From Escherichia phage DCP80, in the sequence record PQ671644.1: a stretch of DNA of 64,000 nt, one strand, 5' to 3'. The notes below the pieces were generated by a model that did no database searches, was not told the origin of the DNA, and worked only from the letters and a program-made list of their open reading frames with translations. Positions 27,781-63,980 of the stretch are shown here, in pieces. The position numbers and the translations under genes are program-made. Within the stretch, counting starts at the first letter, position 1. Each line of letters begins with the position of its first letter.

Positions 27781-27827
27781 CTTTTAATAGAGATGGTATA
27801 ATTATTTCAACTACAGAGGAGAATACT

Positions 27828-28576: not shown

Positions 28577-28722
28577 CACAAGAAGAAGCTGAACGTCAGG
28601 CAAAAGAAGCACTGGATTTGCTTTTGAAAATTGGCAGTAAAATGATGGAAGAAAATGAAAAGTACATCAAGGAAAATAAAGTTCCTGATGGTCCATTAGT
28701 TGGTAAGAGGAAAACATTATGA
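28573..28722 (+). CDS. hypothetical small protein (49 aa)
   Basis: Short ORF read from sequence ([17 protein letters not shown]...); fills the gap between neighbours with start/stop overlaps; below ORF-track cutoff. Confidence 0.3.
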
Positions 28723-29207: not shown

Positions 29208-29383
29208 TGGATTTATTTGAACTTTTTGAAGAGCCTAAAGCTCCCACAGAAGCCCGTGTGGACCTAGTTGACGAACTTGATGCGATTATACAGAAGCACG
29301 GTTTTAGTCTCCCATTGGAAGTTCTGCGCGACCTGGCCTCATATTACGACGACCCACCTCCATGGGCACCATGGAAACAGTAG
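29207..29383 (+). CDS. hypothetical small protein (58 aa)
   Basis: Short ORF ([13 protein letters not shown]...) with start overlapping upstream stop; below ORF-track cutoff. Confidence 0.3.
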   Translation: MDLFELFEEPKAPTEARVDLVDELDAIIQKHGFSLPLEVLRDLASYYDDPPPWAPWKQ

Positions 29384-29439
29384 TTTACTTACTCCCCTCC
29401 TAATGACATAATGACCTTTCTTACAACAGAGAGGTCATT

Positions 29440-29505
29440 ATGAACATCATCAAATCTGATACCGAACCCAACCAGTTAAAATTTAGTGAAATGGAGATAG
29501 CTTCA
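29440..29505 (+). CDS. hypothetical protein, N-terminal 22 codons (truncated by N-run)
   Basis: ATG 29440 with GAGAGG RBS embedded in a 10-bp inverted repeat. Confidence 0.35.
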
Positions 29506-29540
29506 NNNNNNNNNNNNNNNNNNNNNNNNNNNNNNNNNNN
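29506..29540. other. N-run (scaffold junction)
   Basis: 35 n. Confidence 0.95.
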
Positions 29541-37899: not shown

Positions 37900-37940
37900 N
37901 NNNNNNNNNNNNNNNNNNNNNNNNNNNNNNNNNNNNNNNN
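37900..37940. other. N-run (scaffold junction)
   Basis: 41 n. Confidence 0.95.
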
Positions 37941-38023
37941 TTCCCGGTCGCATTATCTTTAAAAATTCTATCAAGAAGTCCAAAAAGTAGGTCTGATAAT
38001 GAAAATCCTACTTTTGGTTCCAT
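37941..38023 (-). CDS. t: holin t, N-terminal 27 codons (second copy, truncated by N-run)
   Basis: Identical to 20301..20383. Confidence 0.75.
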
Positions 38024-38042
38024 ACTTTTCTCCTTTAAAGAT

Positions 38043-38050
38043 ATTTATAA
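38043..38050 (-). promoter_or_regulatory. late promoter TATAAATA for gene t
   Basis: Identical to 20403..20410. Confidence 0.6.
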
Positions 38051-38063
38051 TGCTTTTGCGCTA

Positions 38064-38615
38064 CTATTTTTTAAACCATCTTTTGAAGAATGATTTTTTC
38101 TCTTTTTCTGGCCAAGCCGGGAATTCACCACCGAGGTGTTCGTGTTTTTCTAAAAGAGCAAAGAAACGTTTAAGATTCTGGTGATAGAATTTTTCTTTCT
38201 TATCGGCGACTGAGGCTTCAACCATATTACTTAATACCTGGAATTCTTTATACAAATCGTCAATTTTTCGATTGCGAATCATTACTCGTTTATATGTTTC
38301 ATCTTCTTTCCAGCCATCATCTGTCCATATATCAAACTCGCCAGGTTTATCGAAAGTTATACCGACTGGGCTTCCTATGTCATTTATTAAGATTTCTTCT
38401 TTATTAAAAGTCCATGCACGTTTGCCTCGATGGTCTTCTTCATAAATCCAATCTTGAATGCGTTCGTCAAATACAACGGCATACCCTTCTTTAGGTTCTA
38501 AAGGTTTTTTAGCTGTTGAATGGGCCGGAAGGCCAAGGCCTTTAATGGGTTTATAATTTTCTTCTTTGTAGAATTCTTTTGTGTCAAAATAAAAATGATA
38601 AATTTTCATATTCAA
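38064..38615 (-). CDS. 38: gp38, T4 type (tail-fiber assembly chaperone, not a virion adhesin)
   Basis: 183 aa (as T4 gp38); near-identical to T4 gp38 (KIYH.YFDTKEFYKEENYKP.KGLGLPAHST.KKPLEPKEGYAVVFDER.QDWIYEEDHRGKRAWTFNKEEI). Confidence 0.9.
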   Translation of the reverse strand: MNMKIYHFYFDTKEFYKEENYKPIKGLGLPAHSTAKKPLEPKEGYAVVFDERIQDWIYEEDHRGKRAWTFNKEEILINDIGSPVGITFDKPGEFDIWTDDGWKEDETYKRVMIRNRKIDDLYKEFQVLSNMVEASVADKKEKFYHQNLKRFFALLEKHEHLGGEFPAWPEKEKKSFFKRWFKK

Positions 38616-38636
38616 AAGGGGCCGAAGCCCCTCTCC

Positions 38637-41600
38637 TTATGCTAAACGAACGATATAGTTAAAAGCAATGTTTTTAACCGTGTTTTCTGTATTACCTGTA
38701 CTATTTACGGTAATGGTATGCCCATGTGAACCAATCGCTACAGTATGAGTGTGAGCACCGATACCTACCGTATGCGTGTGAGCACCAATACCTACAGTAT
38801 GAGCGTGGTTACCTGTGGCACTTGTGGTCCCTGACCAACTATGAGTATGAGCACCGTCTGAAGAAGTTTTGGCTATATTCGACCCTGCAGTAGCACCGCT
38901 CACGGTTCCAGTGATTTTAGCGTTGGCGTTTGCACCTACACTATTATATCCGTCATAGAATATGTTATTGGGTACGCCGGCTTGCATCTGAGGGCCTGAA
39001 CGCGCGTGTTGGTGTGCTCCGGCTGAACTGGTAGTACCACTCACTGTATGGTTATGGTTACCGGTGGTATTACTGGTCTTAGTACCATAATCAAAGCTTG
39101 AAGATGTTTTAGTGCCATAATCAAAGCTTGATGTGGTTTTAGTACCCAAGTCAGTACTCGAAGCAGATGCGCCATGGTTATGAGACTTAATACCATCAGC
39201 TTCTGCACTCAACACTGCGCGGCCACTTGGTTTACCCTTGATAGTTTGTCCACGCATATCAGGAATAGTACCAGAAGGATATGCAACAGCAAGCTTAGGA
39301 TAAGCACCTGTATCAAAGGTCTGACCTTCCATCAAAGCATAACCATTAGGAGGAGTATCCGTTGGCCATGGAATTGGGGCTCCAATAGGATAACTTGAAA
39401 CAATATCAGTTTTAAGTGATTCAATTGTACTGTTTAAGTTAGCAAAGTTACCAGAGCCACCGGTGATATTACCATCAGTTCCTAAAGTTGTGTTGCCTAC
39501 AATAATTTTACCAGGTAAGCGGAAGTCACCGGTGCGGCGGAATTCCCAACTTAAATCAGTTCCGGTAGTACTATTGCCCTGGTGATAATGAACGCGGAAG
39601 TCTCCTTGAGAAATTAAGGTGCCAATAGAATAAGTGCTATCACCATTTACATACCGTTGTTTAACAATAGGAATGTATTCAGAAGTAGCAGTACGCTCTA
39701 TATTCATATAAATTGGAGCCCTGACATCTGCGTAATTCTGAGATGCAAACGAACCAGCTCCTGCTGGGCGTACCGTATCAGTACATTCGGCCTCAATATA
39801 TGTCGACTGCCCCAATTTCATTCTAAAATTGGCATTAATGCGAGAGTTACTGTTTATCGTAGTTAAAGCATTATTTTGATCTACTATAAAAGAATCTCTT
39901 CCTAATCCAACCATACCATCGTTTAATCCTATTCTCACAGGTCTCAAAGAGCTGTGAATGTCTCCACTTTCGCCTTCATTTTGATTGGTTGGAAGAATAT
40001 AAAAGTTACTTTCTGAACGACGGAAAATAGCGCCATATTCAGCATTCCAAATTCTTAATGCATCTGCTGTTCCACCAATTTTTACTTGTCCGGTAATAGA
40101 AGAACCACCTTGGACAAACAAACCGTTAGACATAGTAACATTGCCACCAAAAGAACCTGTACCGGAGGCACTTATATTTCCAAGGCCTATGATATGGTCT
40201 GTTTCAACAGCTCCGTTAAATTTAAAGTTAACTGGACCTACTGTTTGACCTGACGCAGGATTAGTACGTTGAGCGTAGAAATAATAACCTTGTGAATCTG
40301 AAACTTCGAATACAGTTTCTCTATTACCGCCACCTGTATTAAATGAATTACCCCACGCTTTAATAGATATATAGTTTTTATTCTGTCCTGCGCGAGTACC
40401 AGCGCCCCACAGTATAGTTTTAGTGCCATCTAATGATGTAGGTGCATCAAGTTGAATACCGTCAGCTCTAGCCCCGGTAAGAAGTACCCCGTTATCAAAT
40501 TTAATTCTTTGAATAGAAGAAATAGTGCCGTCAGCATAAAGCTGTACATTATTAGCGCCGGTTACCAGTTTAAGAATACCTGGGTTAAGTTCCATGCCTT
40601 CTTGGGTGTTAATATTGGTTTGACCTCTACCGCGGAAATAGTGCGACATTTTTCCGCCAGAGTTATAACCAATATGCGTCTGACCATCGCCAGCTGTATT
40701 CCCGTCAGCCTGAGTTTGAGCTGATAAAAATGCAGCATTGGTTCCAGGCATAATCCATGTGGTGCCTTGGTCTTCTGAACGACCAAATAAACCTTTACGA
40801 GTACTACGGAAACTATCTGGAGTAATAGAAGCAACTGAATTCCCTGAACCAACTAAATCATAAACACCGGTTTTTTTGTATGACAGCCCCGTCCCGTTAT
40901 CGCCTAGAGCTAAATAAACACCGAATCCTAAAGCGGCACCATTACCATAGTCGCTTGACGGGTATCCTTCAGTCACAGTACCAATGGCCAAGCTATTGCG
41001 AACAATCATTCTGCCGTCATTACGAATACCATATAGTTTATATGTTGGTGTATTACCAGACCACCAAGAAACCTCATCAGCTTGGCCTAATTGGGCCGTA
41101 CAAATTTCATGATACATTGTACCACCAGACTTGGCGCGAACTTTACGAAGATAGTTTACACCATTCGTTTCGCCTGTGCCTGGGTATGTATATTTAACTA
41201 ATGAATCAGTGTCATATACACCAAATGCTTTGGCATCGTGAATAACTGTATCAGCTGCAATGCGTTTTGTTAATAACGCATCCGAAGCTAAAATACGGTT
41301 AGCCTGAAATTCACCGCCGTTTATAGAACGGAAATAGAATTCACTATTAGCAGTGCCTTCTGTCCCCTGTTTAAGCCTAATGCGTAATTCACCAGCATTT
41401 GTAGTTTGAGGGCGAGTATATATAACACCACGTTCAGTGCCATCGGCATTTTCAAACCAAAGGTGGGCATTTGACGTATCGTTTGTTGCTCTTGAATAAA
41501 ACGAACCCTGTAATGCTCTAAAAGTTTGAGCCGAAATACTCGTGCCTGCTGTAATCGACCCGCTTGTGGAAAAGTTTCCAAAATTGTTTAATGGGCCATT

Positions 41601-41810
41601 AATGCGTAAAGTTCCAGTAATAGTTACATCGCCATCAACTTGTCCACCTTTTGCAAAGCCCAAATCAATAATCTGTCCCTGGTCGGACTTGGTAAAAATA
41701 GTGCGGTCACGCAAGTTAATAGCCAGTTCGCCTTCATCTAACTGAGCTGCAGTAGGCTTGGCTCCTGGTGTTTTACTTCTTTTAAATTGTATCGATTTTA
41801 AAGTAGCCAT
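38637..41810 (-). CDS. 37: long tail fiber distal subunit gp37, T4 type (His-x-His C-terminal tip)
   Basis: 1057 aa; matches T4 gp37 from MATLK.IQFKRSK to the [48 protein letters not shown]-terminus. Confidence 0.95.
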
Positions 41811-41818
41811 AATGCCTC

Positions 41819-42023
41819 TTAATAATATCCAAAATCTTCAGATGTACCTCTAAGAACAACCTGGTCAATACGAGGAACGTGTTCGTTCAATGTTCCTGGG
41901 TTCCTAGATATGAAATTCGGGGCTGAAAGAACACCAGCCATAGATTGTATGTTACTATTATTTATTTGGACCTGTTTTGCGTTATCCACATCACTTAATC
42001 CAACTTGTGCTTTTGTCGGGGTA
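41819..42023 (-). CDS. 36: tail fiber protein gp36, C-terminal fragment
   Basis: Stop-free frame from the N-run to a stop 8 nt upstream of the gene 37 start; assignment by position. Confidence 0.6.
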
Positions 42024-42080
42024 NNNNNNNNNNNNNNNNNNNNNNNNNNNNNNNNNNNNNNNNNNNNNNNNNNNNNNNNN
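42024..42080. other. N-run (scaffold junction)
   Basis: 57 n. Confidence 0.95.
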
Positions 42081-46130: not shown

Positions 46131-46160
46131 NNNNNNNNNNNNNNNNNNNNNNNNNNNNNN
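46131..46160. other. N-run (scaffold junction)
   Basis: 30 n. Confidence 0.95.
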
Positions 46161-49972: not shown

Positions 49973-50000
49973 NNNNNNNNNNNNNNNNNNNNNNNNNNNN
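49973..50000. other. N-run (scaffold junction)
   Basis: 28 n. Confidence 0.95.
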
Positions 50001-50119
50001 GACTATAAATTATGGAATCTTTCCGTTCTTTCTTACTGAAGTATTCTGGGTTAACAAAAGGCCAAAGACCTTAGAACCATTATACACAGTAAAAATAAAA
50101 GCGTTAAAGGCAAAAAGTA

Positions 50120-50148
50120 GTGTACATAAAAGATGAATAGTATATAAT
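50120..50148 (+). promoter_or_regulatory. T4-type early promoter (second copy of 9037..9065)
   Basis: GTGTAC-17nt-TATAAT then GATTCCGTACTGAGTT leader. Confidence 0.5.
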
Positions 50149-50195
50149 GATTCCGTACTGAGTTATTCAATCGTCCGTAAGATGAGAAAAATATC

Positions 50196-50942
50196 ATGAC
50201 TTTATCAAAAACCAAAACGCTGAAAGTTAAACGTCGTCTGGAACACACTCAAGCTTCCGCTAAACGTCGCGGTAAGGACTTTAACCTGGATTTTGATTAT
50301 CTGGTTAACATTCTTGACCAAAAAGTTTGTGCTTATTCTGGTGAGACATTTAATAACTCTATTGAAGGTGAGAAGTTATCATTAGAGCGTTTTAACAATG
50401 ATATTGGTTATATCAAGGGTAATGTTATTCCTGTTAAAAAGAAATACAATACCATGCGTTCTGATTGGACCCTGGATGAGCTTAAACAACGCCGTGATGA
50501 TGTTGCTGTAAAAATTGCTCGCCCTTCTGCCAAGAAGATTGATAAGTTAAATCTGACTGCAGAGAAATGGGAACAGATTAAAAAGTCATATACTCATATC
50601 AAGAACATCCAGCATAAACGTGATAATCGCGTTAAGCATTATGCTCAAATGAGTAAATCAGAGCAGTCCAAAGAAAACCAATTAAAAATGGTTGCTCTGA
50701 AGGCTCGCATTGATGGTTCCCGTGTTGCGGAAGGTCATGAGCTTACTAAATTGAACGTTTTGCTCAAAGGCAATGACTGGAAAGTTACCAAGAAATTAAC
50801 TGATGCTGAAACGCTTTTTGATTGCTATGATAAAATCATTCAAGGTCTTGAGCGTTTTGAGAAGATTGGTTTTATTGGTAAATTAAAACTGAAACGTGGT
50901 CTGCCTTTGAACGCGTCAATTTTTAAACTGATTAGAGGTTAA
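50196..50942 (+). CDS. hypothetical protein (248 aa) at the srd position, diverged copy
   Basis: About 55% identical to 8247..8990 with identical last ~25 aa; flanks near-identical. Confidence 0.55.
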   Translation: MTLSKTKTLKVKRRLEHTQASAKRRGKDFNLDFDYLVNILDQKVCAYSGETFNNSIEGEKLSLERFNNDIGYIKGNVIPVKKKYNTMRSDWTLDELKQRRDDVAVKIARPSAKKIDKLNLTAEKWEQIKKSYTHIKNIQHKRDNRVKHYAQMSKSEQSKENQLKMVALKARIDGSRVAEGHELTKLNVLLKGNDWKVTKKLTDAETLFDCYDKIIQGLERFEKIGFIGKLKLKRGLPLNASIFKLIRG

Positions 50943-50943
50943 T

Positions 50944-51243
50944 GTGATGTACTACGCATATGTGCTAGTCTACAAAGATAAAGATGGTTTTGAACATCCA
51001 TTGGAGTATGATGGAAAGGTGACCTTATACACCACAAAAGTGGGCGCAGAATATGAACTTGCCAACTATTCATATACTACAAAACGCTATTTAAGTATGG
51101 GACGTATTGAAACACGGTATATTCCCAGAAAATGGTGGTTTGATAAGCGTGAAACAAAAACAGTTTTTCCTACTGAAGAACGTGCCCGCGAACTGAAATT
51201 AATTTTAGATACTTTATATGTTAAGCGAGTAAAATTGGCATGA
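50944..51243 (+). CDS. hypothetical protein (99 aa; dda.1 position), second copy
   Basis: 93% identical to 7946..8245. Confidence 0.5.
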   Translation: MMYYAYVLVYKDKDGFEHPLEYDGKVTLYTTKVGAEYELANYSYTTKRYLSMGRIETRYIPRKWWFDKRETKTVFPTEERARELKLILDTLYVKRVKLA

Positions 51244-52568
51244 TTAAATTTGAAGACTTGAACACAGGACAAAAAGAAGCTTTTGATTATATCACTGAAG
51301 CTATTCAGCGACGTTCGGGGGAATGTATCACTCTGAATGGCCCAGCTGGCACAGGTAAGACCACTCTGACAAAATTTGTCATTGACCACTTAGTGCGTAA
51401 TGGAGTTATGGGAATTGTGCTTGCTGCACCAACTCACCAGGCGAAAAAAGTTTTATCTAAATTGTCTGGTCAAACGGCGAATACAATCCATAGTATTCTG
51501 AAGATTAACCCGACCACATATGAAGACCAAAACGTTTTTGAACAGCGCGAAATGCCTGACATGTCAAAATGCAATGTTCTGGTTTGTGATGAAGCAAGTA
51601 TGTATGACGGGGCTCTGTTTAAGATTATTCTTAACTCTGTTCCTGAATGGTGTACTATTCTTGGGATTGGTGATATGCACCAGCTGCAACCAGTTGACCC
51701 AGGAAGTACACAACAAAAGATAAGCCCATTCTTTACGCATCCTAAGTTCAAACAGATTCATCTGACTGAGGTCATGCGAAGCAATGCTCCTATCATTGAA
51801 GTGGCGACAGAAATTCGTAATGGTGGCTGGTTCCGTGACTGTATGTATGATGGTCATGGTGTGCAGGGTTTTACCTCACAAACCGCTTTAAAGGATTTCA
51901 TGATAAACTATTTCGGTATTGTAAAAGATGCTGATATGTTGATGGAAAACCGGATGTATGCGTACACGAATAAATCAGTTGAAAAACTGAACAATATCAT
52001 TCGCCGTAAGCTCTATGAAACAGATAAAGCATTTTTACCGTATGAAGTCCTGGTTATGCAAGAGCCACACATGAAAGAGCTGGAATTTGAAGGCAAGAAA
52101 TTCAGCGAAACCATTTTTAATAATGGTCAGTTGGTTCGCATCAAGGATTGCAAATACACTTCCACAATTCTCCGTTGTAAAGGCGAATCGCACCAGTTGG
52201 TGATTAATTACTGGGACCTGGAAGTTGAGTCAATTGATGAAGATGAAGAATATCAGGTTGACCGCATCAAAGTTTTACCAGAAGACCAGCAACCAAAATT
52301 CCAGGCATACCTGGCTAAAGTTGCTGACACATACAAACAGATGAAAGCCGCTGGTAAACGTCCAGAGTGGAAAGACTTCTGGAAAGCTCGCCGGACCTTC
52401 TTGAAAGTTCGTGCTCTTCCGGTCAGTACAATCCATAAGGCACAGGGTGTTTCAGTGGACAAAGCATTCATCTATACTCCATGCATCCATATGGCCGAAG
52501 CTTCATTAGCGAGCCAGTTGGCTTATGTAGGAATCACACGAGCGAGGTACGACGCATATTATGTATAA
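51240..52568 (+). CDS. dda: Dda DNA helicase, second copy
   Basis: Differs from 6621..7949 by a single residue (V to I). Confidence 0.92.
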   Translation: MIKFEDLNTGQKEAFDYITEAIQRRSGECITLNGPAGTGKTTLTKFVIDHLVRNGVMGIVLAAPTHQAKKVLSKLSGQTANTIHSILKINPTTYEDQNVFEQREMPDMSKCNVLVCDEASMYDGALFKIILNSVPEWCTILGIGDMHQLQPVDPGSTQQKISPFFTHPKFKQIHLTEVMRSNAPIIEVATEIRNGGWFRDCMYDGHGVQGFTSQTALKDFMINYFGIVKDADMLMENRMYAYTNKSVEKLNNIIRRKLYETDKAFLPYEVLVMQEPHMKELEFEGKKFSETIFNNGQLVRIKDCKYTSTILRCKGESHQLVINYWDLEVESIDEDEEYQVDRIKVLPEDQQPKFQAYLAKVADTYKQMKAAGKRPEWKDFWKARRTFLKVRALPVSTIHKAQGVSVDKAFIYTPCIHMAEASLASQLAYVGITRARYDAYYV

Positions 52569-52800
52569 GGTACATAAAGAAGATTTAGATAATCTCATCT
52601 ATGGTATTCAGGACGCGGTTGAATTTTTCGAAGATAATCCGACTATCGTCGTGCAGGGTAATTACGTTTTACTGGAACTGAATCTTATTCGGAAACGTAT
52701 GGCCGCGATTGAATATTTTAACAATGAAGAGCCAGGGATTTTTATCTCCGACTATGTTGCTGGTGAAATTCAGAAATTAAAAGAGATGTGCGATGATTGA
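52561..52800 (+). CDS. hypothetical protein (79 aa), second copy
   Basis: Matches 6389..6628. Confidence 0.5.
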   Translation: MYKVHKEDLDNLIYGIQDAVEFFEDNPTIVVQGNYVLLELNLIRKRMAAIEYFNNEEPGIFISDYVAGEIQKLKEMCDD

Positions 52801-53476
52801 TGCTATTATTGACTTTGAAACTCTGGGAAACGGCTCGAAGGGAGCCGTTATTGACCTGGCCCTGATTACATTCGAATCTGACCCTGCTATTGTGGAATCG
52901 TTCGAAACCCTGGTTAATCGCGGCAAACGCATTAAGTTCAGCCTTGAATATCAAAAAGGTAAGCGGCTGTTCGACACAACAACTATGGGTTGGTGGAAAA
53001 AGCAATCAGCCGAAGCACGTGTTAACCTGGTCCCTTCTGCGCAAGATGTTGATACTCTGACTGGTATCCAACAAGCAATTGACTATCTGAATGACAATGG
53101 AATTAACAAATACGAAAGCCTTATGTGGTGCCGTGGAATGTCTTTTGACTTCCCGTTGTTTGTCGACCTTATCCGCGACCTGCAGCGCAATGAGGGGATT
53201 CCTGAGCGCGAATTGAATACCTATAACCTGGAGCCGGTTGTATTCTGGAACCAGCGAGATATCAGAACAGCAATCGAAGCCCTGTCACTCGTCCGTAAAA
53301 TGTGTGAAACTCCATTACCAAAGGGGACTTTAGATGGATTCGTGGCGCACGATTCGGTACATGACTGTGCGAAAGATATTTTGATGCTTAAGTACGCCCA
53401 GCGCTATGCCCTTGGTTTAGATGAAGTTCCTTCCGAAGAAGATGCAGACCCATTATCTTTGCCGAAAAAACGATAA
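52793..53476 (+). CDS. dexA: exonuclease A (DexA), second copy
   Basis: 227 aa, a few substitutions relative to 5713..6396. Confidence 0.75.
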   Translation: MIDAIIDFETLGNGSKGAVIDLALITFESDPAIVESFETLVNRGKRIKFSLEYQKGKRLFDTTTMGWWKKQSAEARVNLVPSAQDVDTLTGIQQAIDYLNDNGINKYESLMWCRGMSFDFPLFVDLIRDLQRNEGIPERELNTYNLEPVVFWNQRDIRTAIEALSLVRKMCETPLPKGTLDGFVAHDSVHDCAKDILMLKYAQRYALGLDEVPSEEDADPLSLPKKR

Positions 53477-53482
53477 AAAGTA

Positions 53483-53512
53483 GTGTACAAGGCCAATGGA
53501 AAGAGACATAAT
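53483..53512 (+). promoter_or_regulatory. T4-type early promoter (second copy of 5677..5706)
   Basis: GTGTAC-18nt-CATAAT then CATCAACTACTGATGAGGA. Confidence 0.5.
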
Positions 53513-53543
53513 CATCTCATCAACTACTGATGAGGACAACAAA

Positions 53544-53696
53544 ATGATTACTTCTTTTGAAATTGGCCAACAATATGAAATGTCCGCTCTTCAAGCTGCT
53601 GAAGCAGGTCTGACTAAAGCGTTTGAATGTGCATTTGCAAATATTCGTGGTAAAATCTTTACTGTCAATAAAATTGCGGTATATGATAAAGAAACA
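53544..53696 (+). CDS. hypothetical protein, N-terminal fragment (copy of 5388..5645)
   Basis: ATG 53544 after GAGGA RBS; truncated by N-run. Confidence 0.45.
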
Positions 53697-53720
53697 NNNN
53701 NNNNNNNNNNNNNNNNNNNN
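53697..53720. other. N-run (scaffold junction)
   Basis: 24 n. Confidence 0.95.
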
Positions 53721-57104: not shown

Positions 57105-57140
57105 NNNNNNNNNNNNNNNNNNNNNNNNNNNNNNNNNNNN
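57105..57140. other. N-run (scaffold junction)
   Basis: 36 n. Confidence 0.95.
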
Positions 57141-57170
57141 CTTTTGCCTGACGTTCAGCTTCTTCTTGTG

Positions 57171-57365
57171 TCATGATTTATCTCCGTAGATATCACGCAT
57201 CAGTTTAAGCACAGCTCGTTCGGTCTTCTTTTCCTGCATATCTTTGACGCTGGCGGCGGCCCATTCTTCAGCTTCGCGCTGCATTTCTTCCTCGGCTCTG
57301 GCTACCCAGGAATCATCAATCCCTGGAGTAACCAACCAATCTTTAAGCCAACTTGTAATTCTCAT
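57171..57365 (-). CDS. hypothetical protein (64 aa), copy of 28382..28576
   Basis: Identical translation. Confidence 0.45.
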   Translation of the reverse strand: MRITSWLKDWLVTPGIDDSWVARAEEEMQREAEEWAAASVKDMQEKKTERAVLKLMRDIYGDKS

Positions 57366-57722
57366 TTAATCACACGAGCTGGAAGACGAATCGCAGCTTC
57401 CTGAATCATAGGAGGAATAAGACGAATCACCAGTCCACGAACTGACGGCAGCAGCGACTACAATCGGAGTCATATCAATATGCGGTGTAGTATCGACATG
57501 GCTTGTAGAACGTCTTGAATCCAGATGCTCTTTTAACTTTTTCGAATTCAATGGCAATGCACCTGGTCCGACATTACCGGCTTTTTCTGGTCGGCGACGA
57601 ACTTCTTCCATCATACCATCGCCCATGTAAACATATTCTCTTAGCTTGACATCTGGTAGGCTAACAGGAACCACGCCCTCGTTTGGTTTGGTCTTGAATA
57701 AATTCTTGAGCCAACTAATCAT
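57366..57722 (-). CDS. hypothetical protein (118 aa), copy of 28022..28381
   Basis: Near-identical translation (a few substitutions). Confidence 0.5.
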   Translation of the reverse strand: MISWLKNLFKTKPNEGVVPVSLPDVKLREYVYMGDGMMEEVRRRPEKAGNVGPGALPLNSKKLKEHLDSRRSTSHVDTTPHIDMTPIVVAAAVSSWTGDSSYSSYDSGSCDSSSSSCD

Positions 57723-57916
57723 AGGAAACCTCGTTTAAATTCAACTTGACCATCATCATAACGGATTTCAATATTGAATTCTAAAGAATCATCATCGTGC
57801 ATCATGAACGAGTGCACGACAACCTCATCAAACACACCCAGACCATACTTAAAATGTACATCATGGGCAATAACTTCGTCTAAAGTTTTGTTCGGTTTAA
57901 TCCAACGGTTTAACAT
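57719..57916 (-). CDS. hypothetical protein (65 aa), copy of 27828..28025
   Basis: Identical translation. Confidence 0.45.
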   Translation of the reverse strand: MLNRWIKPNKTLDEVIAHDVHFKYGLGVFDEVVVHSFMMHDDDSLEFNIEIRYDDGQVEFKRGFL

Positions 57917-57964
57917 AGTATTCTCCTCTGTAGTTGAGATAATTATACCATCTCTATTAAAAGC

Positions 57965-57987
57965 AAAAAGGGAACCCGAAGGTTCCC
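57965..57987 (-). terminator. rho-independent terminator after soc (second copy)
   Basis: GGGAACC-UUCG-GGUUCCC with U-run on the minus strand. Confidence 0.65.
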
Positions 57988-57992
57988 TATAA

Positions 57993-58226
57993 TTAAACTA
58001 CTGGGGTAGGCGTAAACATCGCCGCGTTCTTAGTTCGCCAATCGGCTGCATCAGTCACTACAGTAGTATAGGCTGCAACGGCCGAAGGGAAAGTCTGATA
58101 ATGAGCATCCGCAATACGGTGCTCGTTTGAATAGATTTCAAACGGAACAGATACTTCAACACCTTTAACTTCTTTACCTTCACCAGCTGGATGCGTAAAG
58201 GTTTTGATATTAACGAAACCACCCAT
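57993..58226 (-). CDS. soc: small outer capsid protein Soc, second copy
   Basis: Identical translation to 27517..27750. Confidence 0.8.
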   Translation of the reverse strand: MGGFVNIKTFTHPAGEGKEVKGVEVSVPFEIYSNEHRIADAHYQTFPSAVAAYTTVVTDAADWRTKNAAMFTPTPVV

Positions 58227-58267
58227 AATAAACTCCTTTGTTGTTTAATTACAGGTGTATTTATAAC

Positions 58268-58549
58268 TTACAATTTGGCGGCTTGGACTGCTTTATTGGC
58301 TTCAGTCATTTTAGCTAGATTTTCAGCAGTAGGATTGGCAATGTATTCGGCTGTAGCTTTAGCAAAAACATTATGAGTTTCGATTACATTTTTAGCATTT
58401 TCAATATTCATATCAATTTCTTGTTTAGATAAATTTTTTAGTTGATTGGCTAAGAGTTCTACAAAGATTTCAACATTAGCGTTTTCAATTATATCATTAA
58501 TATGCTTCTTACGAGCTTTCTTAAGCTGACGTTTATTTAAACGAGGCAT
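58268..58549 (-). CDS. hypothetical protein (93 aa), copy of 27194..27475
   Basis: Near-identical translation. Confidence 0.5.
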   Translation of the reverse strand: MPRLNKRQLKKARKKHINDIIENANVEIFVELLANQLKNLSKQEIDMNIENAKNVIETHNVFAKATAEYIANPTAENLAKMTEANKAVQAAKL

Positions 58550-59067
58550 TAATAACCTCGGTCCTGACGAGCAAAGTTCTCGGCATTTTTCAGGTAATAC
58601 AGTTTAAAGATTTCTTCTGCTGTCAGACCAAGACCATGGAACATGTTCAGAACGAAATGGAGAATATCAATCATTTCGAATTTAATTTCGAGCTGGTCTT
58701 CAGGAGAGAGTTCGTCAATACGACGGTTACGGAATTCGCCATGTTGAGCTTTCCAAGGCTTCCAACAACTTGATGCAGCTTTCTCGCCATTAGACATACC
58801 ACCGAGAGAAGTCAGAAGTTCACGGAATTCGTCGTCAACATAATCTTTCTGGTTGCGAAGCCATGCAACAACATCGCCTGCGGTTGCCAATTCATCTGGA
58901 TGTGCGTTATATTCTGGTTTTTCTGTAGCCAGACGAACCTGCAAAGATTTCTGCATATCAAGCATAATCTGCAGAGGGTCATCATTGCCTTTTAGGACAT
59001 CATTATACGCATCTTGCGCTTTATCAACACCAGCAATCAGTTGAGAACACTCGTTAAAATGAGCCAT
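58549..59067 (-). CDS. 56: dCTP pyrophosphatase gp56, second copy
   Basis: Near-identical to 26676..27194 (a few substitutions). Confidence 0.92.
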   Translation of the reverse strand: MAHFNECSQLIAGVDKAQDAYNDVLKGNDDPLQIMLDMQKSLQVRLATEKPEYNAHPDELATAGDVVAWLRNQKDYVDDEFRELLTSLGGMSNGEKAASSCWKPWKAQHGEFRNRRIDELSPEDQLEIKFEMIDILHFVLNMFHGLGLTAEEIFKLYYLKNAENFARQDRGY

Positions 59068-59105
59068 TATATTTTTCCTTATCAATTCATGTTGTTTGTA
59101 TGTTA

Positions 59106-59129
59106 ATTATATCATATTGGTTTAAAGCA
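59106..59129 (-). promoter_or_regulatory. middle promoter (MotA box + TATAAT) for gene 56, second copy
   Basis: Reverse complement of 26614..26637. Confidence 0.5.
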
Positions 59130-59151
59130 TAAATACAAGAAAGGAGGATGT

Positions 59152-59349
59152 ATGCTCAAACTATCTAGTCTAATTCAAGCCATCAAAGGCAGTCGTAAGC
59201 GAACGATTCTGGTCCTTTCGATACTCTGTTTTGTTCTACTCTGGAATTTCATTGTTGTCCCTATTGCATTGGCACATGGTGTTATATTGCCAGTCGTCGC
59301 GCTCGAATCAGTTGTAGATGTTTCACTAGCATTAATCGGCCTTATATAG
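59152..59349 (+). CDS. small membrane protein (65 aa), second copy
   Basis: One substitution relative to 26394..26591. Confidence 0.45.
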   Translation: MLKLSSLIQAIKGSRKRTILVLSILCFVLLWNFIVVPIALAHGVILPVVALESVVDVSLALIGLI

Positions 59350-59457
59350 GTGGAACTTACTGGTTGTGCCTATCGCTGCAACACAAGGGGTGCACTTACC
59401 CCAGGTCACAATGGAACATATTCATTCCATCATCGGTTACTTTACCGGAATCCCTTC

Positions 59458-60486
59458 CTAAACTTTTGCGTACTTCGAAAGTCGCATTCTCGCCATCAAT
59501 CCTTGAGCAACGTTATCGGCCATATATGATTCGATTTGTTCAGGGGTTGCCCCTTCTGATTTAACCATCTCATTTATGTCTTTCGTATGCCATGGTGCAT
59601 TGTCCCAGAACATAACAGCTTCGCCCGCTTCAACGAGCTTCTTCATACGTTTAATCGTATCTTTATGTCGCGGTTCATGGTCCATCACCCATACTCTGGT
59701 TTCTGGATAAGGAACAGCTTCCAATGCCAATGTGCCACCGGTTATCGCAATGCTGTTAGGGATAAACAAACTATCAATTGGACCTTCCATTACCCATACG
59801 CGTTTACGCTCATCAATCTTGTCTACGCCATAGACTTTGGAAGCTTCTGGGTGAGCTTTGATTGTGATATATTTTTGTGGTGCATCTTTGCGAAGAGCTC
59901 GTCCTTGGAAAGATTCGATTTCTTTTTTGCCGTTGAAGATAGGAATAACCAAGCGTGGTTCATTCGTTTCATTCTTATACGTCCCAGGATTGACGGAGTT
60001 AACTAATGCAGGCCATTTGTTTGTAAACCATAACCGGTTCCAAACATTGCTAGGAATACACCGACTTTTTACATACTTAATTATCGGATGTGCTTCTGGT
60101 AAAGTATCGAGTCTTTCACAAAAAGCAAGCTGCTCGATAACCGGAGTTTTTTCTGGTTCTTTCGGAGTTTCTGCAACTTCATTGCGCTGTCTGCCAAAGG
60201 CATTCTCCTTATACTTCTCAACCATATATTCCCGGTGTAAATCCGGCTCAAACTCTTTTATGTATTTGCTTATATGCGTGGAGTAGTCACAGTTAAAACA
60301 TTTCACGTAAACCGCGCCATCAGACGGATTGGTATACGCCCAGAATCGAGCTTTATGTGAATCTTTCTGGGAGTCGCCACAAACTTTACATCTGCAGTTT
60401 GCCTTAAATGTGCTCCCGGTGACTTCTCTATAACGTGGTTGATACGATAAAGCTCTGACTGCAAATTCTTTATCAATATATGACAT
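59458..60486 (-). CDS. 61: DNA primase gp61, second copy
   Basis: About 97% identical to 25257..26285. Confidence 0.93.
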   Translation of the reverse strand: MSYIDKEFAVRALSYQPRYREVTGSTFKANCRCKVCGDSQKDSHKARFWAYTNPSDGAVYVKCFNCDYSTHISKYIKEFEPDLHREYMVEKYKENAFGRQRNEVAETPKEPEKTPVIEQLAFCERLDTLPEAHPIIKYVKSRCIPSNVWNRLWFTNKWPALVNSVNPGTYKNETNEPRLVIPIFNGKKEIESFQGRALRKDAPQKYITIKAHPEASKVYGVDKIDERKRVWVMEGPIDSLFIPNSIAITGGTLALEAVPYPETRVWVMDHEPRHKDTIKRMKKLVEAGEAVMFWDNAPWHTKDINEMVKSEGATPEQIESYMADNVAQGLMARMRLSKYAKV

Positions 60487-60514
60487 AGTTTCCTCATTTC
60501 AATGGCCCCGAAGG

Positions 60515-60560
60515 NNNNNNNNNNNNNNNNNNNNNNNNNNNNNNNNNNNNNNNNNNNNNN
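60515..60560. other. N-run (scaffold junction)
   Basis: 46 n. Confidence 0.95.
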
Positions 60561-60561
60561 A

Positions 60562-60691
60562 GCGGACGAACGTTTGGAACGAGCTATCAAACAAGAAGCT
60601 ATTGCCAAACGAGCATTGATGAAGTCTCTTTATCTCTGCCTTCATGTCATTAATGCGCTGGAAGCTATTCGGTTTTATGTTTCATTTGCGT
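60562..60691 (+). CDS. nrdB: ribonucleotide reductase beta subunit NrdB, exon 1 (3' part only)
   Basis: Frame ...LYLCLHVINALEAIRFYVSFA aligns with the conserved R2 helix (E. coli ..LSLFLCGLMAEAIRFYVSFAC..); exon ends at U60691. Confidence 0.8.
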
Positions 60692-61000
60692 AAATTGCGC
60701 CTTTAAGTGGTAACACTTATCGAAAACTCCTTTAATTGCTGGAAAATCCGGAAACGGAAAACTAGCAGCCAAGGTTTTGCTTGCGCCTTTAATTAGTATC
60801 ATATTATAAATATGATTATACTTTTAAGAGGATGCACAATTGCAAAACAAGGTTCAACGACTAGTCTTCGGACGTAGGGCCAAGCGGCTCGAAATGGGGA
60901 GAATCCTTCTGGGATTGTGATATAGTCTGGTCTGCATGGTAACATGCAGCAGTTCATAAGAGAACGGGATAAGAAATAGCGAGCTTATTCGAACATAACG
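60692..61000 (+). ncRNA. group I self-splicing intron in nrdB (309 nt, no homing-endonuclease ORF)
   Basis: Interrupts the conserved FYVSFA|C..MEGNAK region exactly where a Cys codon is reconstituted (U + GU); exon U before 5' splice site, intron ends in G; P1-like pairing UUGCGU/GCGC; catalytic-core-like segments (UCAACGACUAGUC ... AUAGUCUGG); T4 nrdB is known to carry a group I intron. Confidence 0.7.
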
Positions 61001-61503
61001 GTACATTTAATTTCCATAAGAACATGGAAATCATGGAAGGTAATGCGAAGATAATGAAGTTCATCGCCCGTGATGAACAGCTCCACCTTAAGGGGACCCA
61101 ATATATTCTTCGTCAGTTGCAGACTGGTACTGACGGTGACGAATGGGTTAAAATCGCACATGAATGTGAAGCAGAAGCCGCAGCCATTTTCATGGAAGTT
61201 AATCGCCAGGAAAAAGAATGGGCCGTGCATCTGTTTAAAGATGGTGGACTCCCCGGGCTGAGCGTCGAGATTCTTAACCGGTTCATCGATTACCTGACGG
61301 TTTCTCGTATGAAGCAATGTGGTCTCCCGTGTGAAATCGTGTTAGAATCTACTAAGCACCCGATTCCATGGATTCGTGAATATCTTAACTCTGATAATGT
61401 GCAATCAGCACCACAAGAAGTTGAGTTGTCTGCTTACCTGGTAGCCCAGATTGACAATGACGTCGATGAGAATGTTCTTGCTGGTTTCCGTAAATATCTA
61501 TAA
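61001..61503 (+). CDS. nrdB: NrdB exon 2
   Basis: ..(C)TFNFHKNMEIMEGNAKIMKFIARDEQLHL...VELSAYLVAQIDNDVDENVLAGF matches the R2 C-terminal half and C-terminal tail. Confidence 0.85.
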
Positions 61504-63143: not shown

Positions 63144-63377
63144 ATGTTAAACTTAATTACAAATGAAAGAGTTACACAGGCATATGGTGACAGAAATGAT
63201 GGAATCTATGTCTACAAGGGAGACCGCCGGATTGGTTTCATTACTGACCTGAAGGCCAAATTGTTAAAAGAATTGAAAGCTCAAACAGGTGATTCTGGGT
63301 TTAGAGCAAGAGCCAAAAAGAAAGATGAACGCCTGGGTGCCAACTCTTTTGGTCCTAGAGGTTACAACCGCTACTAA
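63144..63377 (+). CDS. hypothetical protein (77 aa), N-terminal paralog of the following gene
   Basis: ATG after GAGGA RBS; residues 6-42 about 65% identical to the N-terminus of 63391..63894. Confidence 0.5.
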   Translation: MLNLITNERVTQAYGDRNDGIYVYKGDRRIGFITDLKAKLLKELKAQTGDSGFRARAKKKDERLGANSFGPRGYNRY

Positions 63378-63390
63378 TGAGGAAAATATT

Positions 63391-63894
63391 ATGAATATGC
63401 AACTGATTTCAAATGAAATGATTGTTGATGTATATGGTGACCGCCATGACGGAATCTATGTTTATAAAGGTTCCAAAAATGTTGGGTTCCTTACTGACTT
63501 AAGAAAGAAACTGGCGTCTGATAATAAGTTGAAGGCGAAACAAAAAGAATATCGTGATAAGAAATCAGAAGAGCGGAAAGAAGCACTGCATGAATCTGTT
63601 CCTGAAATGGTTGACTTCTTAAAGAACCATTTGGTTAAATATGATGCAGAAGTGTTCATCAATCAGACCCAACCTAATGTGCATATCAATGGATGTGTTT
63701 GTTATGTTGTGGTTGAACCCCTGACACTTCAACACCGCCTGGGAATTAAACACCCAGTGTTAACCCAGGATGATATGGCGGATGAAGTTGGTAATCAGTT
63801 CCGCATTTCAGCATCTGACAGTACAAATCACATCCTCCTGAATGGTTTATCCCAGGATGATATTGTTGAGGTAATCATCAAGTTATGCAAATAA
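63391..63894 (+). CDS. alc: Alc-like protein (by position after gene 63 and length 167 aa)
   Basis: ATG 63391 with GAGGA RBS, 13 nt after upstream stop; T4 alc follows gene 63 and encodes 167 aa; no sequence recall to confirm. Confidence 0.5.
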   Translation: MNMQLISNEMIVDVYGDRHDGIYVYKGSKNVGFLTDLRKKLASDNKLKAKQKEYRDKKSEERKEALHESVPEMVDFLKNHLVKYDAEVFINQTQPNVHINGCVCYVVVEPLTLQHRLGIKHPVLTQDDMADEVGNQFRISASDSTNHILLNGLSQDDIVEVIIKLCK

Positions 63895-63922: not shown

Positions 63923-63980
63923 NNNNNNNNNNNNNNNNNNNNNNNNNNNNNNNNNNNNNNNNNNNNNNNNNNNNNNNNNN
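63923..63980. other. N-run (scaffold junction)
   Basis: 58 n. Confidence 0.95.

What the first reader, a model, noticed from the sequence alone, without database searches (positions are those of the whole stretch)
60692..61000. Compact ORF-less group I intron splitting nrdB, with an internal TATAAATA
The NrdB reading frame stops after ...FYVSFA and resumes 309 nt later so that U + GU rebuilds the conserved Cys codon, giving FYVSFA-C-TFNFHKNMEIMEGNAK. The interval has a U before the 5' splice site, a terminal G, P1-like pairing and core-like segments. T4 nrdB carries a group I intron with a defective I-TevIII ORF; this one is much shorter and has no ORF, yet keeps a late-promoter-like TATAAATA at 60805-60812, possibly a relic of endonuclease expression signals.
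Basis: partly seen in the sequence, partly recalled or inferred. Interest (0 to 1): 0.6.

Follow-up and report, generated by a model that had tools for sequence, protein, structure and literature searches.

The report
ORF-less nrdB group I intron
The 309-base interruption of the phage ribonucleotide reductase gene nrdB is a real self-splicing group I intron of the well-known phage T4 nrdB family that has lost its homing-endonuclease gene but kept that gene's promoter and ribosome-binding site, so it is an ordinary member of a known family with an instructive mosaic history.

Summary
Rfam's group I intron model matches at 74 bits (E 6e-17). Removing the 309 nt rebuilds FYVSFA-C-TFNFHK, the same sequence as in intronless NrdB. 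The intron is a homologue of the T4/RB3 nrdB intron at the same insertion site, about 92% identical to the T4 core. Its fold is kept by compensatory changes: 99.5% of cells pair and 9 pairs covary. The I-TevIII gene is missing exactly between two ACAATTG repeats. The same scar occurs in five unannotated GenBank phages. TATAAATA 60805-60812 aligns with the I-TevIII late promoter of T4/RB3, and the Shine-Dalgarno-sequestering hairpin and TTG start are also retained.

Three things are new. The backbone is a Gaprivervirus, and every sequenced isolate of that genus has an intronless nrdB. A metagenome contig has identical exons and an identical ribozyme core, but its P6 arm carries an intact, divergent I-TevIII homologue. 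The window's intron therefore looks like a mosaic of a lineage-specific core and a T4-type, ORF-deleted P6 arm.

Two caveats apply. The window is a concatenation of strain-mixed contigs, and nrdB exon 1 is cut 131 nt upstream of the intron. This is a known kind of element of modest interest.

The parts
60561..60691 (+). nrdB exon 1, last 131 nt only. It is cut by the fragment boundary (N run 60515-60560) and ends with U60691, the first base of the Cys codon.
   Evidence: It is identical (0/131 mismatches) to the full-length exon 1 on sister contig L016.
60692..61000 (+). Group I intron, 309 nt, subgroup IA2-like (P7.1 and P7.2 present). The 5' splice site follows U60691 and the terminal G is G61000.
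   Evidence: Rfam RF00028 at 74.1 bits. Same junctions as T4. A 92-pair model is supported by covariation. The fold z-score is -3.2.
60688..60700 (+). P1 hairpin. Exon GCGU plus A1 (60688-60692) pairs with UGCGC (60696-60700), with the U60691-G60697 wobble at the splice site.
   Evidence: Invariant in 7 introns. G60690 (-2) is required for P1. It is the state of all intron-bearing alleles, whereas intronless Gapriverviruses have A or T there.
60704..60770 (+). P2 (60704-60709/60714-60719), P3 5' strand (60727-60732), P4 (60737-60742/60762-60767), P5 (60747-60750/60755-60758) and P6 5' strand (60768-60770).
   Evidence: Compensatory changes occur in P2 (3 pairs) and P5 (1 pair), including changes unique to the window.
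60774..60848 (+). P6a/P6b/P6c arm, the 'P6 module'. It is of T4/CJY920/S16 type and is where the I-TevIII gene sits in ORF-bearing copies. The inferred recombination crossovers lie in 60756-60773 and 60849-60879.
   Evidence: This arm has 2 substitutions against CJY920, versus 18 in the rest of the intron. The rest of the intron is 100% identical to contig L016, whose own P6 arm is different and carries a 269-aa HNH ORF.
60805..60812 (+). TATAAATA, the T4-type late promoter -10 element, a relic of I-TevIII expression. It lies in the loop and 3' strand of the tip hairpin (60798-60804/60810-60816). The predicted start is about A60818 (inference).
   Evidence: It aligns with the TATAAATA of T4/RB3. 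The promoter and hairpin logic are described in PMC2988022. The motif is absent from L016 and from intronless relatives.
60826..60842 (+). Shine-Dalgarno AAGAGG (60826-60831), paired with 60782-60790 in the full-length pre-mRNA. ACAATTG (60836-60842) is the deletion scar, and its last three bases are the I-TevIII TTG start codon.
   Evidence: The RB3 I-TevIII CDS starts at this TTG. A second ACAATTG lies 785 nt downstream, and deleting between the two gives this junction.
60840..60920 (+). A 26-codon remnant reading frame: the TTG start fused out of frame to the 3' end of the former ORF. It is probably meaningless.
   Evidence: No Pfam match.
60849..60990 (+). P6 3' strand (60851-60853), P7 (60859-60863/60923-60927, pseudoknotted with P3), P7.1 (60864-60873), P7.2 (60877-60890), P3 3' strand (60896-60901), P8 (60902-60916), P9 (60932-60949), P9.1 (60952-60965) and P9.2 (60967-60990).
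   Evidence: Compensatory changes occur in P7.2, P9 and P9.2, and there are no disrupted pairs in the window.
61001..61503 (+). nrdB exon 2, from GU completing the Cys codon through the stop codon.
   Evidence: It is 96% identical to Gaprivervirus nrdB against 75% to T4-type, and 0/503 mismatches to L016.
60641..61011 (+). Intron-associated exon haplotype. Synonymous substitutions cluster from -50 to +11 around the insertion site, which overlaps the I-TevIII homing site.
   Evidence: There are 12 differences from P896 in 63 nt against 16 in 571 nt, Fisher p 3e-6. The haplotype is shared with L016 and absent from intronless relatives that have an identical RnlA. The +5/+8/+11 states are shared with phage S16.

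Best explanation
The interval is a self-splicing group I intron (IA2-like) of the T-even phage nrdB intron family, inserted at the family's canonical site inside the Cys codon of FYVSFAC.

Mechanism (inferred from the family):
- The nrdB pre-mRNA folds into P1-P9.2.
- Exogenous guanosine attacks after U60691, which forms a U-G wobble in P1.
- The freed exon 1 then attacks after G61000. The exons are ligated, the UGU codon is restored and full-length NrdB can be made. Unspliced RNA stops at UAA.

The intron no longer encodes the HNH homing endonuclease I-TevIII. The 785-nt gene body is missing exactly between two 7-nt ACAATTG repeats. What remains is the gene's late promoter (TATAAATA), the hairpin that hides its Shine-Dalgarno sequence in long transcripts, the Shine-Dalgarno sequence itself and the TTG start. 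These are non-functional leftovers.

The host backbone is a Gaprivervirus. In this lineage the intron core and about 60 nt of flanking exon form a distinct haplotype. That haplotype is also found, with an intact divergent I-TevIII homologue, on a metagenome contig. The most likely history is that an ORF-bearing intron of this lineage had its P6 arm replaced, by recombination within the conserved core, with the already ORF-deleted P6 arm of a T4/S16-type intron. Without an endonuclease the intron cannot home by itself. It can spread only by ordinary recombination or by trans-acting or free-standing endonucleases.
For: Shown:
- Rfam hit at 74.1 bits, E 6e-17.
- Splice junctions identical to T4's, and exon ligation restores an NrdB 209/211 identical to intronless P896.
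- 91.7-93.5% identity to T4 and CJY920 nrdB introns.
- A 92-pair structural model with 99.5% of cells paired and 9 covarying pairs, against 34-45% paired and 0 covarying in the slid controls.
- Of 14 substitutions unique to this copy, 10 form 5 compensatory pairs, 1 is C-G to U-G, 3 are unpaired and none is disruptive.
- The deletion junction lies between ACAATTG repeats, one of which overlaps the annotated TTG start of RB3 I-TevIII.
- The same junction occurs in CJY920, BYEP01, PD112, CE1 and SP21535. SP21535 is 100% identical to the ORF-bearing U5 core, and PD112 equals RB3 except for a 2-nt deletion. The ORF is therefore lost recurrently and recently.
- TATAAATA aligns with the T4/RB3 promoter (PMC2988022).
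- The backbone is 96-98.5% identical to Gapriverviruses, and their nrdB is intronless.
- Sister contig L016 has exons and intron core with 0 mismatches, but a different P6 arm with a 269-aa HNH_3 ORF 75% identical to I-TevIII.
- The window's P6 arm differs from CJY920 at 2 sites, against 18 in the core.

Inferred: catalytic activity, the direction of the module swap, and the promoter being a neutral relic.
Against: - No RNA data exist. Splicing is inferred from homology and covariation only.
- Exon 1 is truncated by a contig end, so an intact nrdB in this genome is not demonstrated. It is only demonstrated in the sister contig.
- The mosaic rests on one contig from a strain-mixed assembly: the window holds overlapping fragments at 95-97% identity. 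I found no independent contig with the same mosaic.
- The contrast of 2/75 against 18/226 differences from CJY920 is not significant on its own. The case for a mosaic rests mainly on the comparison with L016.
- The crossover intervals are short (18 and 31 nt).
Confidence: 0.85

Rival explanations
1. The intron is real, but its mosaic structure (lineage-specific core plus T4-type ORF-less P6 arm) is an assembly or library artefact from a sample that contained several T4-like phages.
For: - The window is a concatenation of 14 contigs.
- Pairs of fragments cover the same genes at 95-97% identity, and two fragments share an identical 111-nt start, typical of graph branching.
- The intron contig begins only 131 nt upstream of the intron.
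- No second contig with this mosaic was found.
Against: - The exact identity shared by the two parental types at the junctions is only 18 and 31 nt. That is shorter than the k-mers of usual assemblers, so a graph chimera is unlikely.
- The P6 arm is not identical to any known T4-type copy. It has 2 differences from CJY920, one of them unique.
- Both strands of each P6 helix come from the same parent, so the fold is intact.
- All sampled window fragments are Gaprivervirus-like, and no Tequatrovirus fragment was seen in the window.
Confidence: 0.15
2. The ORF-less form is the ancestral, never-invaded intron, and the ACAATTG repeats in ORF-bearing copies are the footprint of endonuclease-gene insertion.
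For: - ORF-less group I introns are thought to predate invasion by endonuclease genes (reviewed in PMC2988022).
- The ORF is flanked by 7-nt direct repeats.
Against: - The ORF-less copies retain a late promoter, a Shine-Dalgarno sequence at the correct spacing and the TTG start. These serve only the missing gene.
- ORF-less SP21535 and PD112 are identical or nearly identical to the cores of ORF-bearing U5 and RB3, and lie on three different haplotype backgrounds. That means recent, repeated loss.
- The promoter is decaying in several ORF-less copies.
Confidence: 0.05
3. The TATAAATA is kept because it works as a late promoter for downstream genes (nrdB exon 2, denA, and rnlA whose product also attaches tail fibres late), rather than being a neutral relic.
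For: - It is the only consensus late promoter on the + strand of the fragment.
- It is also the only one in the homologous 6.8 kb of T4.
- The -10 element and the downstream bases are identical to those of the T4/RB3 promoter.
Against: - Intronless Gapriverviruses and the sister contig L016 have no TATAAATA anywhere in this region and evidently manage without one.
- The motif is mutated or deleted in BYEP01, PD112, SP21535, SG1 and even in ORF-bearing U5.
Confidence: 0.08
4. nrdB is a pseudogene here and the intervening sequence is a dead intron remnant.
For: Exon 1 is incomplete in the window, and the intron lacks its endonuclease gene.
Against: - Exon differences from relatives are 26 synonymous to 2 non-synonymous.
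- All intron changes preserve pairing.
- The truncation coincides with an N-run contig boundary, and the sister contig has a complete exon 1.
Confidence: 0.02

Closest known systems
Phage T4 / RB3 nrdB group I intron with I-TevIII (T4: 598 nt with a defective ORF; RB3: 1091 nt with an intact 269-aa HNH endonuclease)
   Same: - Same gene and same insertion site (within the Cys codon of FYVSFAC).
- Same helices P1-P9.2, including P7.1 and P7.2.
- About 92% core identity.
- Same TATAAATA, Shine-Dalgarno sequence, TTG and sequestering hairpin in the P6 arm.
   Different: - The whole ORF is missing (309 nt).
- The core is the most divergent copy seen, with 20-26 substitutions from every other copy and 14 unique ones.
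- The host is a Gaprivervirus rather than a Tequatrovirus.
Unannotated ORF-less nrdB introns in GenBank phages CJY920 (309 nt), BYEP01, PD112 and CE1 (304 nt) and SP21535 (300 nt)
   Same: - Identical ACAATTG deletion junction.
- CJY920 has the same length, the same 3-nt insertion next to the promoter and an intact TATAAATA.
   Different: - Those are Tequatroviruses with T4-type exons and cores.
- Here only the P6 arm is of that type, while the core and flanking exon haplotype belong to another lineage.
- In the records whose annotation was inspected, nrdB is annotated as two separate CDS (BYEP01, PD112, SP21535) or the record carries no annotation at all (CJY920). No intron feature is listed.
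ENA metagenome contig ERZ27235507 k119_2606 (locus L016): Gaprivervirus-type nrdB with a 1085-nt intron
   Same: Exons (131 + 503 nt) and intron positions 1-82 and about 166-309 are identical to the window.
   Different: - Its P6 arm is diverged, lacks TATAAATA and the upstream ACAATTG, and carries an intact 269-aa HNH_3 ORF with an ATG start that is 75% identical to I-TevIII.
- It diverges from the window by about 2% from 61577 onwards.
Endonuclease-lacking phage introns mobilised in trans (T4 mobE 'trans homing' of the defunct nrdB intron; 'collaborative homing' by free-standing endonucleases)
   Same: It is an intron with no endonuclease of its own in an endonuclease-rich neighbourhood. The sister contig and some Gapriverviruses carry a NUMOD1 free-standing endonuclease gene between nrdA and nrdB (PMC2790892).
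   Different: The window does not include the region upstream of nrdB, so the presence of such a helper here is unknown. No T4-type co-conversion tract is visible in the 131 nt of exon 1.
Salmonella phage S16 (Gelderlandvirus) nrdB intron, 1093 nt with an intact ORF
   Same: - Same family and site.
- Its P6 arm is 96% identical, including a 3-nt insertion.
- It shares the exon-2 flank states ACA TTT AAT with the window.
   Different: It bears the ORF, has 26 core differences, and has different exon 1 flanks.

Membership tests
Group I self-splicing intron (Rfam RF00028) | Sequence-plus-structure match to the family covariance model above the curated threshold | tested here: met
   74.1 bits against a gathering score of 50, E 5.9e-17, model positions 1-253 of 253.
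Group I self-splicing intron (Rfam RF00028) | U-G wobble pair at the 5' splice site in P1 and a terminal G at the 3' end | tested here: met
   U60691 pairs with G60697 in a 5-bp P1 that is invariant in 7 homologues. G61000 precedes exon 2.
Group I self-splicing intron (Rfam RF00028) | Conserved core P3-P8 with the P3/P7 pseudoknot, supported by covariation | tested here: met
   92 pairs, 99.5% of cells paired, 9 pairs with changes on both sides, and 0 in all six slid controls. P3, P4, P6 and P7 themselves are invariant and so uninformative. The covariation is in P2, P5, P6c, P7.2, P9 and P9.2.
Group I self-splicing intron (Rfam RF00028) | Guanosine-dependent self-splicing that yields ligated exons | not testable with these tools
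   In silico ligation restores an NrdB identical at the junction to intronless homologues.
Subgroup IA2 (as the T4 introns are classed; from my own knowledge of Michel and Westhof 1990) | Extra hairpins P7.1 and P7.2 between P7 and the 3' strand of P3 | tested here: met
   P7.1 is 60864-60873 (UUCG loop). P7.2 is 60877-60890, with a compensatory U-A to C-G change.
T-even phage nrdB intron family | Same insertion site in nrdB and alignable intron sequence | tested here: met
   The same anchors give the 598-nt T4 intron and the 1091-nt RB3 intron. The core is 91.7% identical to T4.
Mobile (homing) group I intron | Encodes a homing endonuclease (I-TevIII, HNH family) | tested here: not met
   There is no + strand ORF of 30 aa or more. 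The ORF is deleted between the ACAATTG repeats. The remnant and antisense ORFs have no Pfam hit.
T4 late promoter | TATAAATA -10 element on the transcribed strand | tested here: met
   Located at 60805-60812 on the + strand. The window is enriched for the motif, 16 against 4.85 expected.
T4 late promoter | Homologous in position to an experimentally mapped late promoter | tested here: met
   It aligns with the T4/RB3 TATAAATA upstream of I-TevIII. The mapping is reported in the literature, summarised in PMC2988022.
T4 late promoter | Late transcripts initiating about 6 nt downstream during infection | not testable with these tools
   A predicted start near A60818 is an inference only.

The most novel reading that the evidence does not exclude
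The window captures, next to its ORF-bearing sibling (identical exons and ribozyme core), a natural module swap inside a ribozyme. A functional homing-endonuclease gene and its P6 arm were purged by recombination with an already ORF-deleted P6 arm from a different intron lineage. This would be loss of the endonuclease gene by inter-intron gene conversion, in a phage genus (Gaprivervirus) whose sequenced isolates all lack the intron. The swap also imported the only consensus late promoter in the nrdB-denA-rnlA region.
Probability: 0.5. Interest if true: 0.45.

Novelty: new member of a known kind. Interest (0 to 1): 0.3.

Why it matters
[quoted passage not shown] This copy and its relatives show all of those stages.

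- About 126 phage records carry a T4-type intron. Roughly 85 have a full-length gene, about 35 a truncated one, and 6 none.
- Complete loss happens repeatedly by one precise microhomology deletion.
- The ORF-less arm may itself spread by recombination into other intron lineages.
- The window and L016 differ only in the P6 arm. They are a ready-made pair for measuring the cost or benefit of an intron-borne endonuclease, and the effect of a large P6 insert on splicing.

There is also a practical point. In the ORF-less GenBank records whose annotation I inspected, nrdB is given as two separate CDS or not annotated at all. Annotation pipelines would benefit from recognising this intron.

Tried and rejected
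1. **Pseudogene or frameshift.** Rejected on the 26:2 synonymous-to-non-synonymous ratio and the exact restoration of the junction.

2. **Coding potential inside the intron.** The three antisense ORFs and the 26-codon remnant have no Pfam hit and no record as called genes.

3. **Search for the donor of the unique exon flank.**
   - The exon-intron junction query gave 85% at best.
   - A spliced 331-nt query found only intronless Gapriverviruses at 96% or less.
   - A spliced 80-nt query found nothing above 90% in more than 1000 records.
   - Only S16 shares the three exon-2 states.

4. **Exact-pattern scans.**
   - The deletion junction gave 0 hits in IMG/VR, JGI metagenomes and GTDB genomes.
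   - The 5' junction gave 0 hits in IMG/VR.
   - A lineage-specific core 25-mer found only unrelated IA2 introns in cyanobacterial MAGs and uncultivated viral contigs.

5. **MobE/Hef-style long co-conversion tract.** None is visible. Exon 1 from -131 to -53 is Gaprivervirus-type. The partial ORF upstream of nrdB on L016 is not Hef, but it has a NUMOD1 domain.

6. **Other split Gaprivervirus nrdB genes.** I tried to look at the roughly 20 public contigs that encode other 156/159-aa exon-2 products of Gaprivervirus type, to see their intron state.
   - Look-ups with the window's DenA returned only intronless relatives.
   - Look-ups with the window's RnlA returned only intronless relatives.

7. 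**Sandegren and Sjöberg 2004 (JBC).** The paper is not held. Statements about it come from my memory and from citations in the reviews.

8. **P10 pairing.** I found no convincing P10 pairing by eye and make no claim about it.

Full report
**What is in the sequence**

The nrdB reading frame ...EAIRFYVSFA ends at 60690. U60691 is followed by AA, so an unspliced message terminates at UAA. After 309 nt (60692-61000, last base G) the sequence resumes with GU ACA UUU AAU..., giving Cys-Thr-Phe-Asn-Phe-His-Lys-Asn-Met-Glu-Ile-Met-Glu-Gly-Asn-Ala-Lys.

Joining 60561-60691 to 61001-61503 gives a 211-residue product. It is 209/211 identical to residues 183-393 of the uninterrupted NrdB of Gaprivervirus P896, and the junction peptide FYVSFACTFNFHK is the same as in T4 NrdB. 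The nucleotide differences from P896 are 26 synonymous to 2 non-synonymous, so the gene is under purifying selection.

Rfam's group I intron model matches 60666-60949 on the + strand at 74.1 bits (gathering score 50, E 5.9e-17). It is the only Rfam family found in the window. The RNA folds better than all 100 shuffles, z = -3.2.

**A caveat about the window**

The window is not one stretch of DNA. It holds 14 fragments of 3.4-8.4 kb separated by N runs that all end on multiples of 20.
- Two pairs of fragments cover the same genes at 95.6% and 96.6% identity.
- Two fragments share an identical 111-nt start.
- The fragment to the left of the intron fragment (gp61 primase, minus strand) lies about 42 kb away in relatives.

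The window is therefore a set of contigs from a strain-mixed assembly. The intron contig is 60561-63922, so nrdB exon 1 is cut 131 nt before the intron. The fragments are 95-98.5% identical to Gapriverviruses such as P896, SP18 and phage 212.

**Family**

The intron is a homologue of the T4/RB3 nrdB intron.
- It is 91.7% identical to T4 over the two core halves.
- It is 93.5% identical to a 309-nt copy in phage CJY920.
- With the same exon anchors, T4 gives its known 598 nt, RB3 1091 nt, U5 1083 nt, SG1 420 nt, BYEP01 and PD112 304 nt, and SP21535 300 nt.

I wrote a 92-pair model and counted it on an alignment of seven copies with the ORF removed. The model covers P1, P2, P3, P4, P5, P6, P6a-c, P7 as a pseudoknot, P7.1, P7.2, P8, P9, P9.1 and P9.2.
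- 99.5% of cells pair and 9 pairs change on both sides.
- The six slid controls give 34-45% pairing and no double changes.

This copy is the most divergent, with 20-26 substitutions from every other copy. Of its 14 unique substitutions, 10 form five compensatory pairs (P2, P5, P7.2 and two in P9.2). One turns C-G into U-G, three are unpaired and none breaks a helix. That is the signature of a ribozyme still under selection. Catalysis itself is inferred, not shown.

**How the ORF was lost**

In RB3 the annotated I-TevIII CDS (269 aa) starts at a TTG that forms the last three bases of an ACAATTG at intron positions 142-148. A second ACAATTG lies at 927-933, 22 nt before the stop codon. All ORF-less copies, including the window (scar at 60836-60842), have exactly one ACAATTG and lack the 785 nt in between.

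ORF-less SP21535 is 100% identical to the core of ORF-bearing U5. PD112 equals RB3 apart from a 2-nt deletion. CJY920 and the window sit on a third background. The same microhomology deletion has therefore happened recently and more than once.

In the phage collection:
- 126 records carry the T4-type P6 arm, and 6 of them (5 phages) are ORF-less.
- About 85 records hold a full-length ORF.
- 379 records are intronless at this site.

In the ORF-less records I inspected, nrdB is annotated as two CDS (BYEP01, PD112, SP21535) or the record has no annotation (CJY920). I found no paper describing an ORF-less nrdB intron. A 2010 review states that the three T-even introns all encode their endonucleases (PMC2993671).

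**The TATAAATA**

It aligns with the TATAAATA upstream of I-TevIII in T4 and RB3. The review PMC2988022 describes the arrangement for the intron endonucleases:
- a late promoter lies just upstream of the ORF;
- late transcripts start inside the hairpin and free the site.

All of these parts survive here:
- The tip hairpin is 60798-60804/60810-60816, with the promoter in its loop and 3' strand.
- Helix 60782-60790/60827-60836 covers the Shine-Dalgarno AAGAGG (60826-60831).
- The TTG is at 60840.

What follows the TTG is a meaningless 26-codon frame.

In other decayed copies the motif is mutated or gone: TATAAATG in BYEP01 and PD112, and lost in SP21535, SG1 and even ORF-bearing U5.

I could not exclude that the promoter still fires. 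It is the only consensus late promoter on this strand of the fragment and of the homologous T4 region. However, intronless Gapriverviruses have none there at all.

**Host and history**

All Gaprivervirus records have an uninterrupted nrdB. So do two public contigs that encode exactly the window's RnlA.

The window's exons are Gaprivervirus-type throughout, except for a cluster of synonymous changes between -50 and +11 of the insertion site. There are 12 differences in 63 nt there, against 16 in the other 571 nt (p = 3e-6).
- G at -2 completes P1 (GCGU/GCGC). Intronless Gapriverviruses have A or T at that position.
- Nothing in more than 1000 phage nrdB records matches the tract better than 90%.
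- Phage S16 (Gelderlandvirus, ORF-bearing intron) shares the three exon-2 states.

**The sister contig**

Looking up the exact exon-2 ORF product found one contig, ENA ERZ27235507 k119_2606 (L016).
- Its exons (131 + 503 nt) and its intron positions 1-82 and about 166-309 are identical to the window.
- Its intron is 1085 nt. The P6 arm is diverged, has no TATAAATA and no upstream ACAATTG. It carries an intact 269-aa HNH_3 ORF with an ATG start that is 75% identical to RB3 I-TevIII.
- Nothing in the phage collection is closer than 79% to this intron.
- The two contigs diverge by about 2% from 61577 onwards.

The window's P6 arm (60774-60848) is instead of the T4/CJY920/S16 type. It has 2 substitutions against CJY920, versus 18 in the rest of the intron.

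The deletion scar can only arise in a T4-type arm, because L016 has just one ACAATTG. The simplest history is therefore that an L016-type intron had its ORF-bearing arm replaced by an already ORF-deleted T4-type arm. The crossovers would lie in the conserved stretches 60756-60773 and 60849-60879. Both strands of P6a-c come from the same parent, so the fold is preserved.

The alternative is an assembly artefact. It is disfavoured because the shared identity at the junctions (18 and 31 nt) is below usual k-mer sizes. I nevertheless found no independent contig with the same mosaic.

The protein cluster of the exon-2 product contains at least eight further 156/159-aa variants on about 20 public contigs of up to 169 kb. 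Split nrdB genes are therefore not rare in uncultured Gaprivervirus-like phages.

**Verdict**

The finding is real and correctly interpreted. It is a new member of a very well-known family, the T-even nrdB group I intron, in a state (endonuclease gene lost, expression signals left behind) that already exists unrecognised in GenBank. The Gaprivervirus host, the distinct intron lineage with its own I-TevIII homologue, and the probable arm swap are modestly new evolutionary details. None of them is a new kind of element.

Noticed in passing
whole window; N runs at 4511-4520, 9760-9800, 15031-15080, 20286-20300, 25005-25040, 29506-29540, 37900-37940, 42024-42080, 46131-46160, 49973-50000, 53697-53720, 57105-57140, 60515-60560, 63923-63980: The window is a concatenation of 14 contig-like fragments padded with N so that each N run ends on a multiple of 20. 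Neighbouring fragments are not neighbours in the genome. For example, the primase fragment 57141-60514 lies about 42 kb from nrdB in relatives.
   Followed up: yes
window 25041-29505 vs 57141-60514; 4521-9759 vs 50001-53696; 20301-25004 vs 37941-42023: Pairs of fragments cover the same phage genes at 96.6%, 95.6% and 87% identity, and two fragments share an identical 111-nt start. At least two related Gaprivervirus strains are therefore mixed in the source assembly.
   Followed up: partly
L016 2-352 (ENA ERZ27235507 k119_2606); also L029 2071-2799 and L031 2374-2796: A free-standing NUMOD1-domain gene, the tail of a homing-endonuclease-like protein, sits between nrdA and nrdB and overlaps the nrdB start. 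It is present in the sister contig and in some Gapriverviruses (e.g. DK-13) and absent in P896 and SP18. It is not similar to U5 Hef. It could mobilise the ORF-less intron in trans.
   Followed up: partly
L016 1164-1973: An intact 269-aa HNH_3 endonuclease, 75% identical to RB3 I-TevIII, lies inside the Gaprivervirus-type nrdB intron. It is a divergent I-TevIII lineage with no close relative among sequenced phages; the best match for the whole intron is 79% nt.
   Followed up: partly
L017-L022 (IMG/VR UViGs 3300042272_000023, 3300042276_000234, 3300042257_000036; ERZ808274 NODE-1257; Snowella MAGs JANNLO010000313, QBMS01000004): Unrelated IA2-type group I introns share a 25-nt exact core stretch (GGGCCAAGCGGCTCGAAATGGGGAG) with the window. 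Several appear to carry an ORF that runs into P7. The window's P7.2 state (GCC/GGC) is the widespread one, and the T4 state (GUC/GAC) is the exception.
   Followed up: no
window 63144-63377 and 63289-63894: Two tandem, overlapping alc-like ORFs lie downstream of rnlA. Both begin ...GDR.DGIYVYKG... This matches the alcb/alca pair annotated in SP18 and the two PF17527 genes in other Gapriverviruses.
   Followed up: no
window, both strands: There are 16 exact TATAAATA motifs against 4.85 expected from shuffles, and 12 of them are on the + strand. This is consistent with T4-type late promoters scattered through the fragments.
   Followed up: no
L023 (Salmonella phage S16, NC_020416) 1051-3322: S16 (genus Gelderlandvirus) carries the nrdB intron with a full-length endonuclease ORF and a free-standing endonuclease gene between nrdA and nrdB. 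The intron family therefore already spans more than the T-even (Tequatrovirus) cluster. nrdB is annotated there as two separate CDS.
   Followed up: partly
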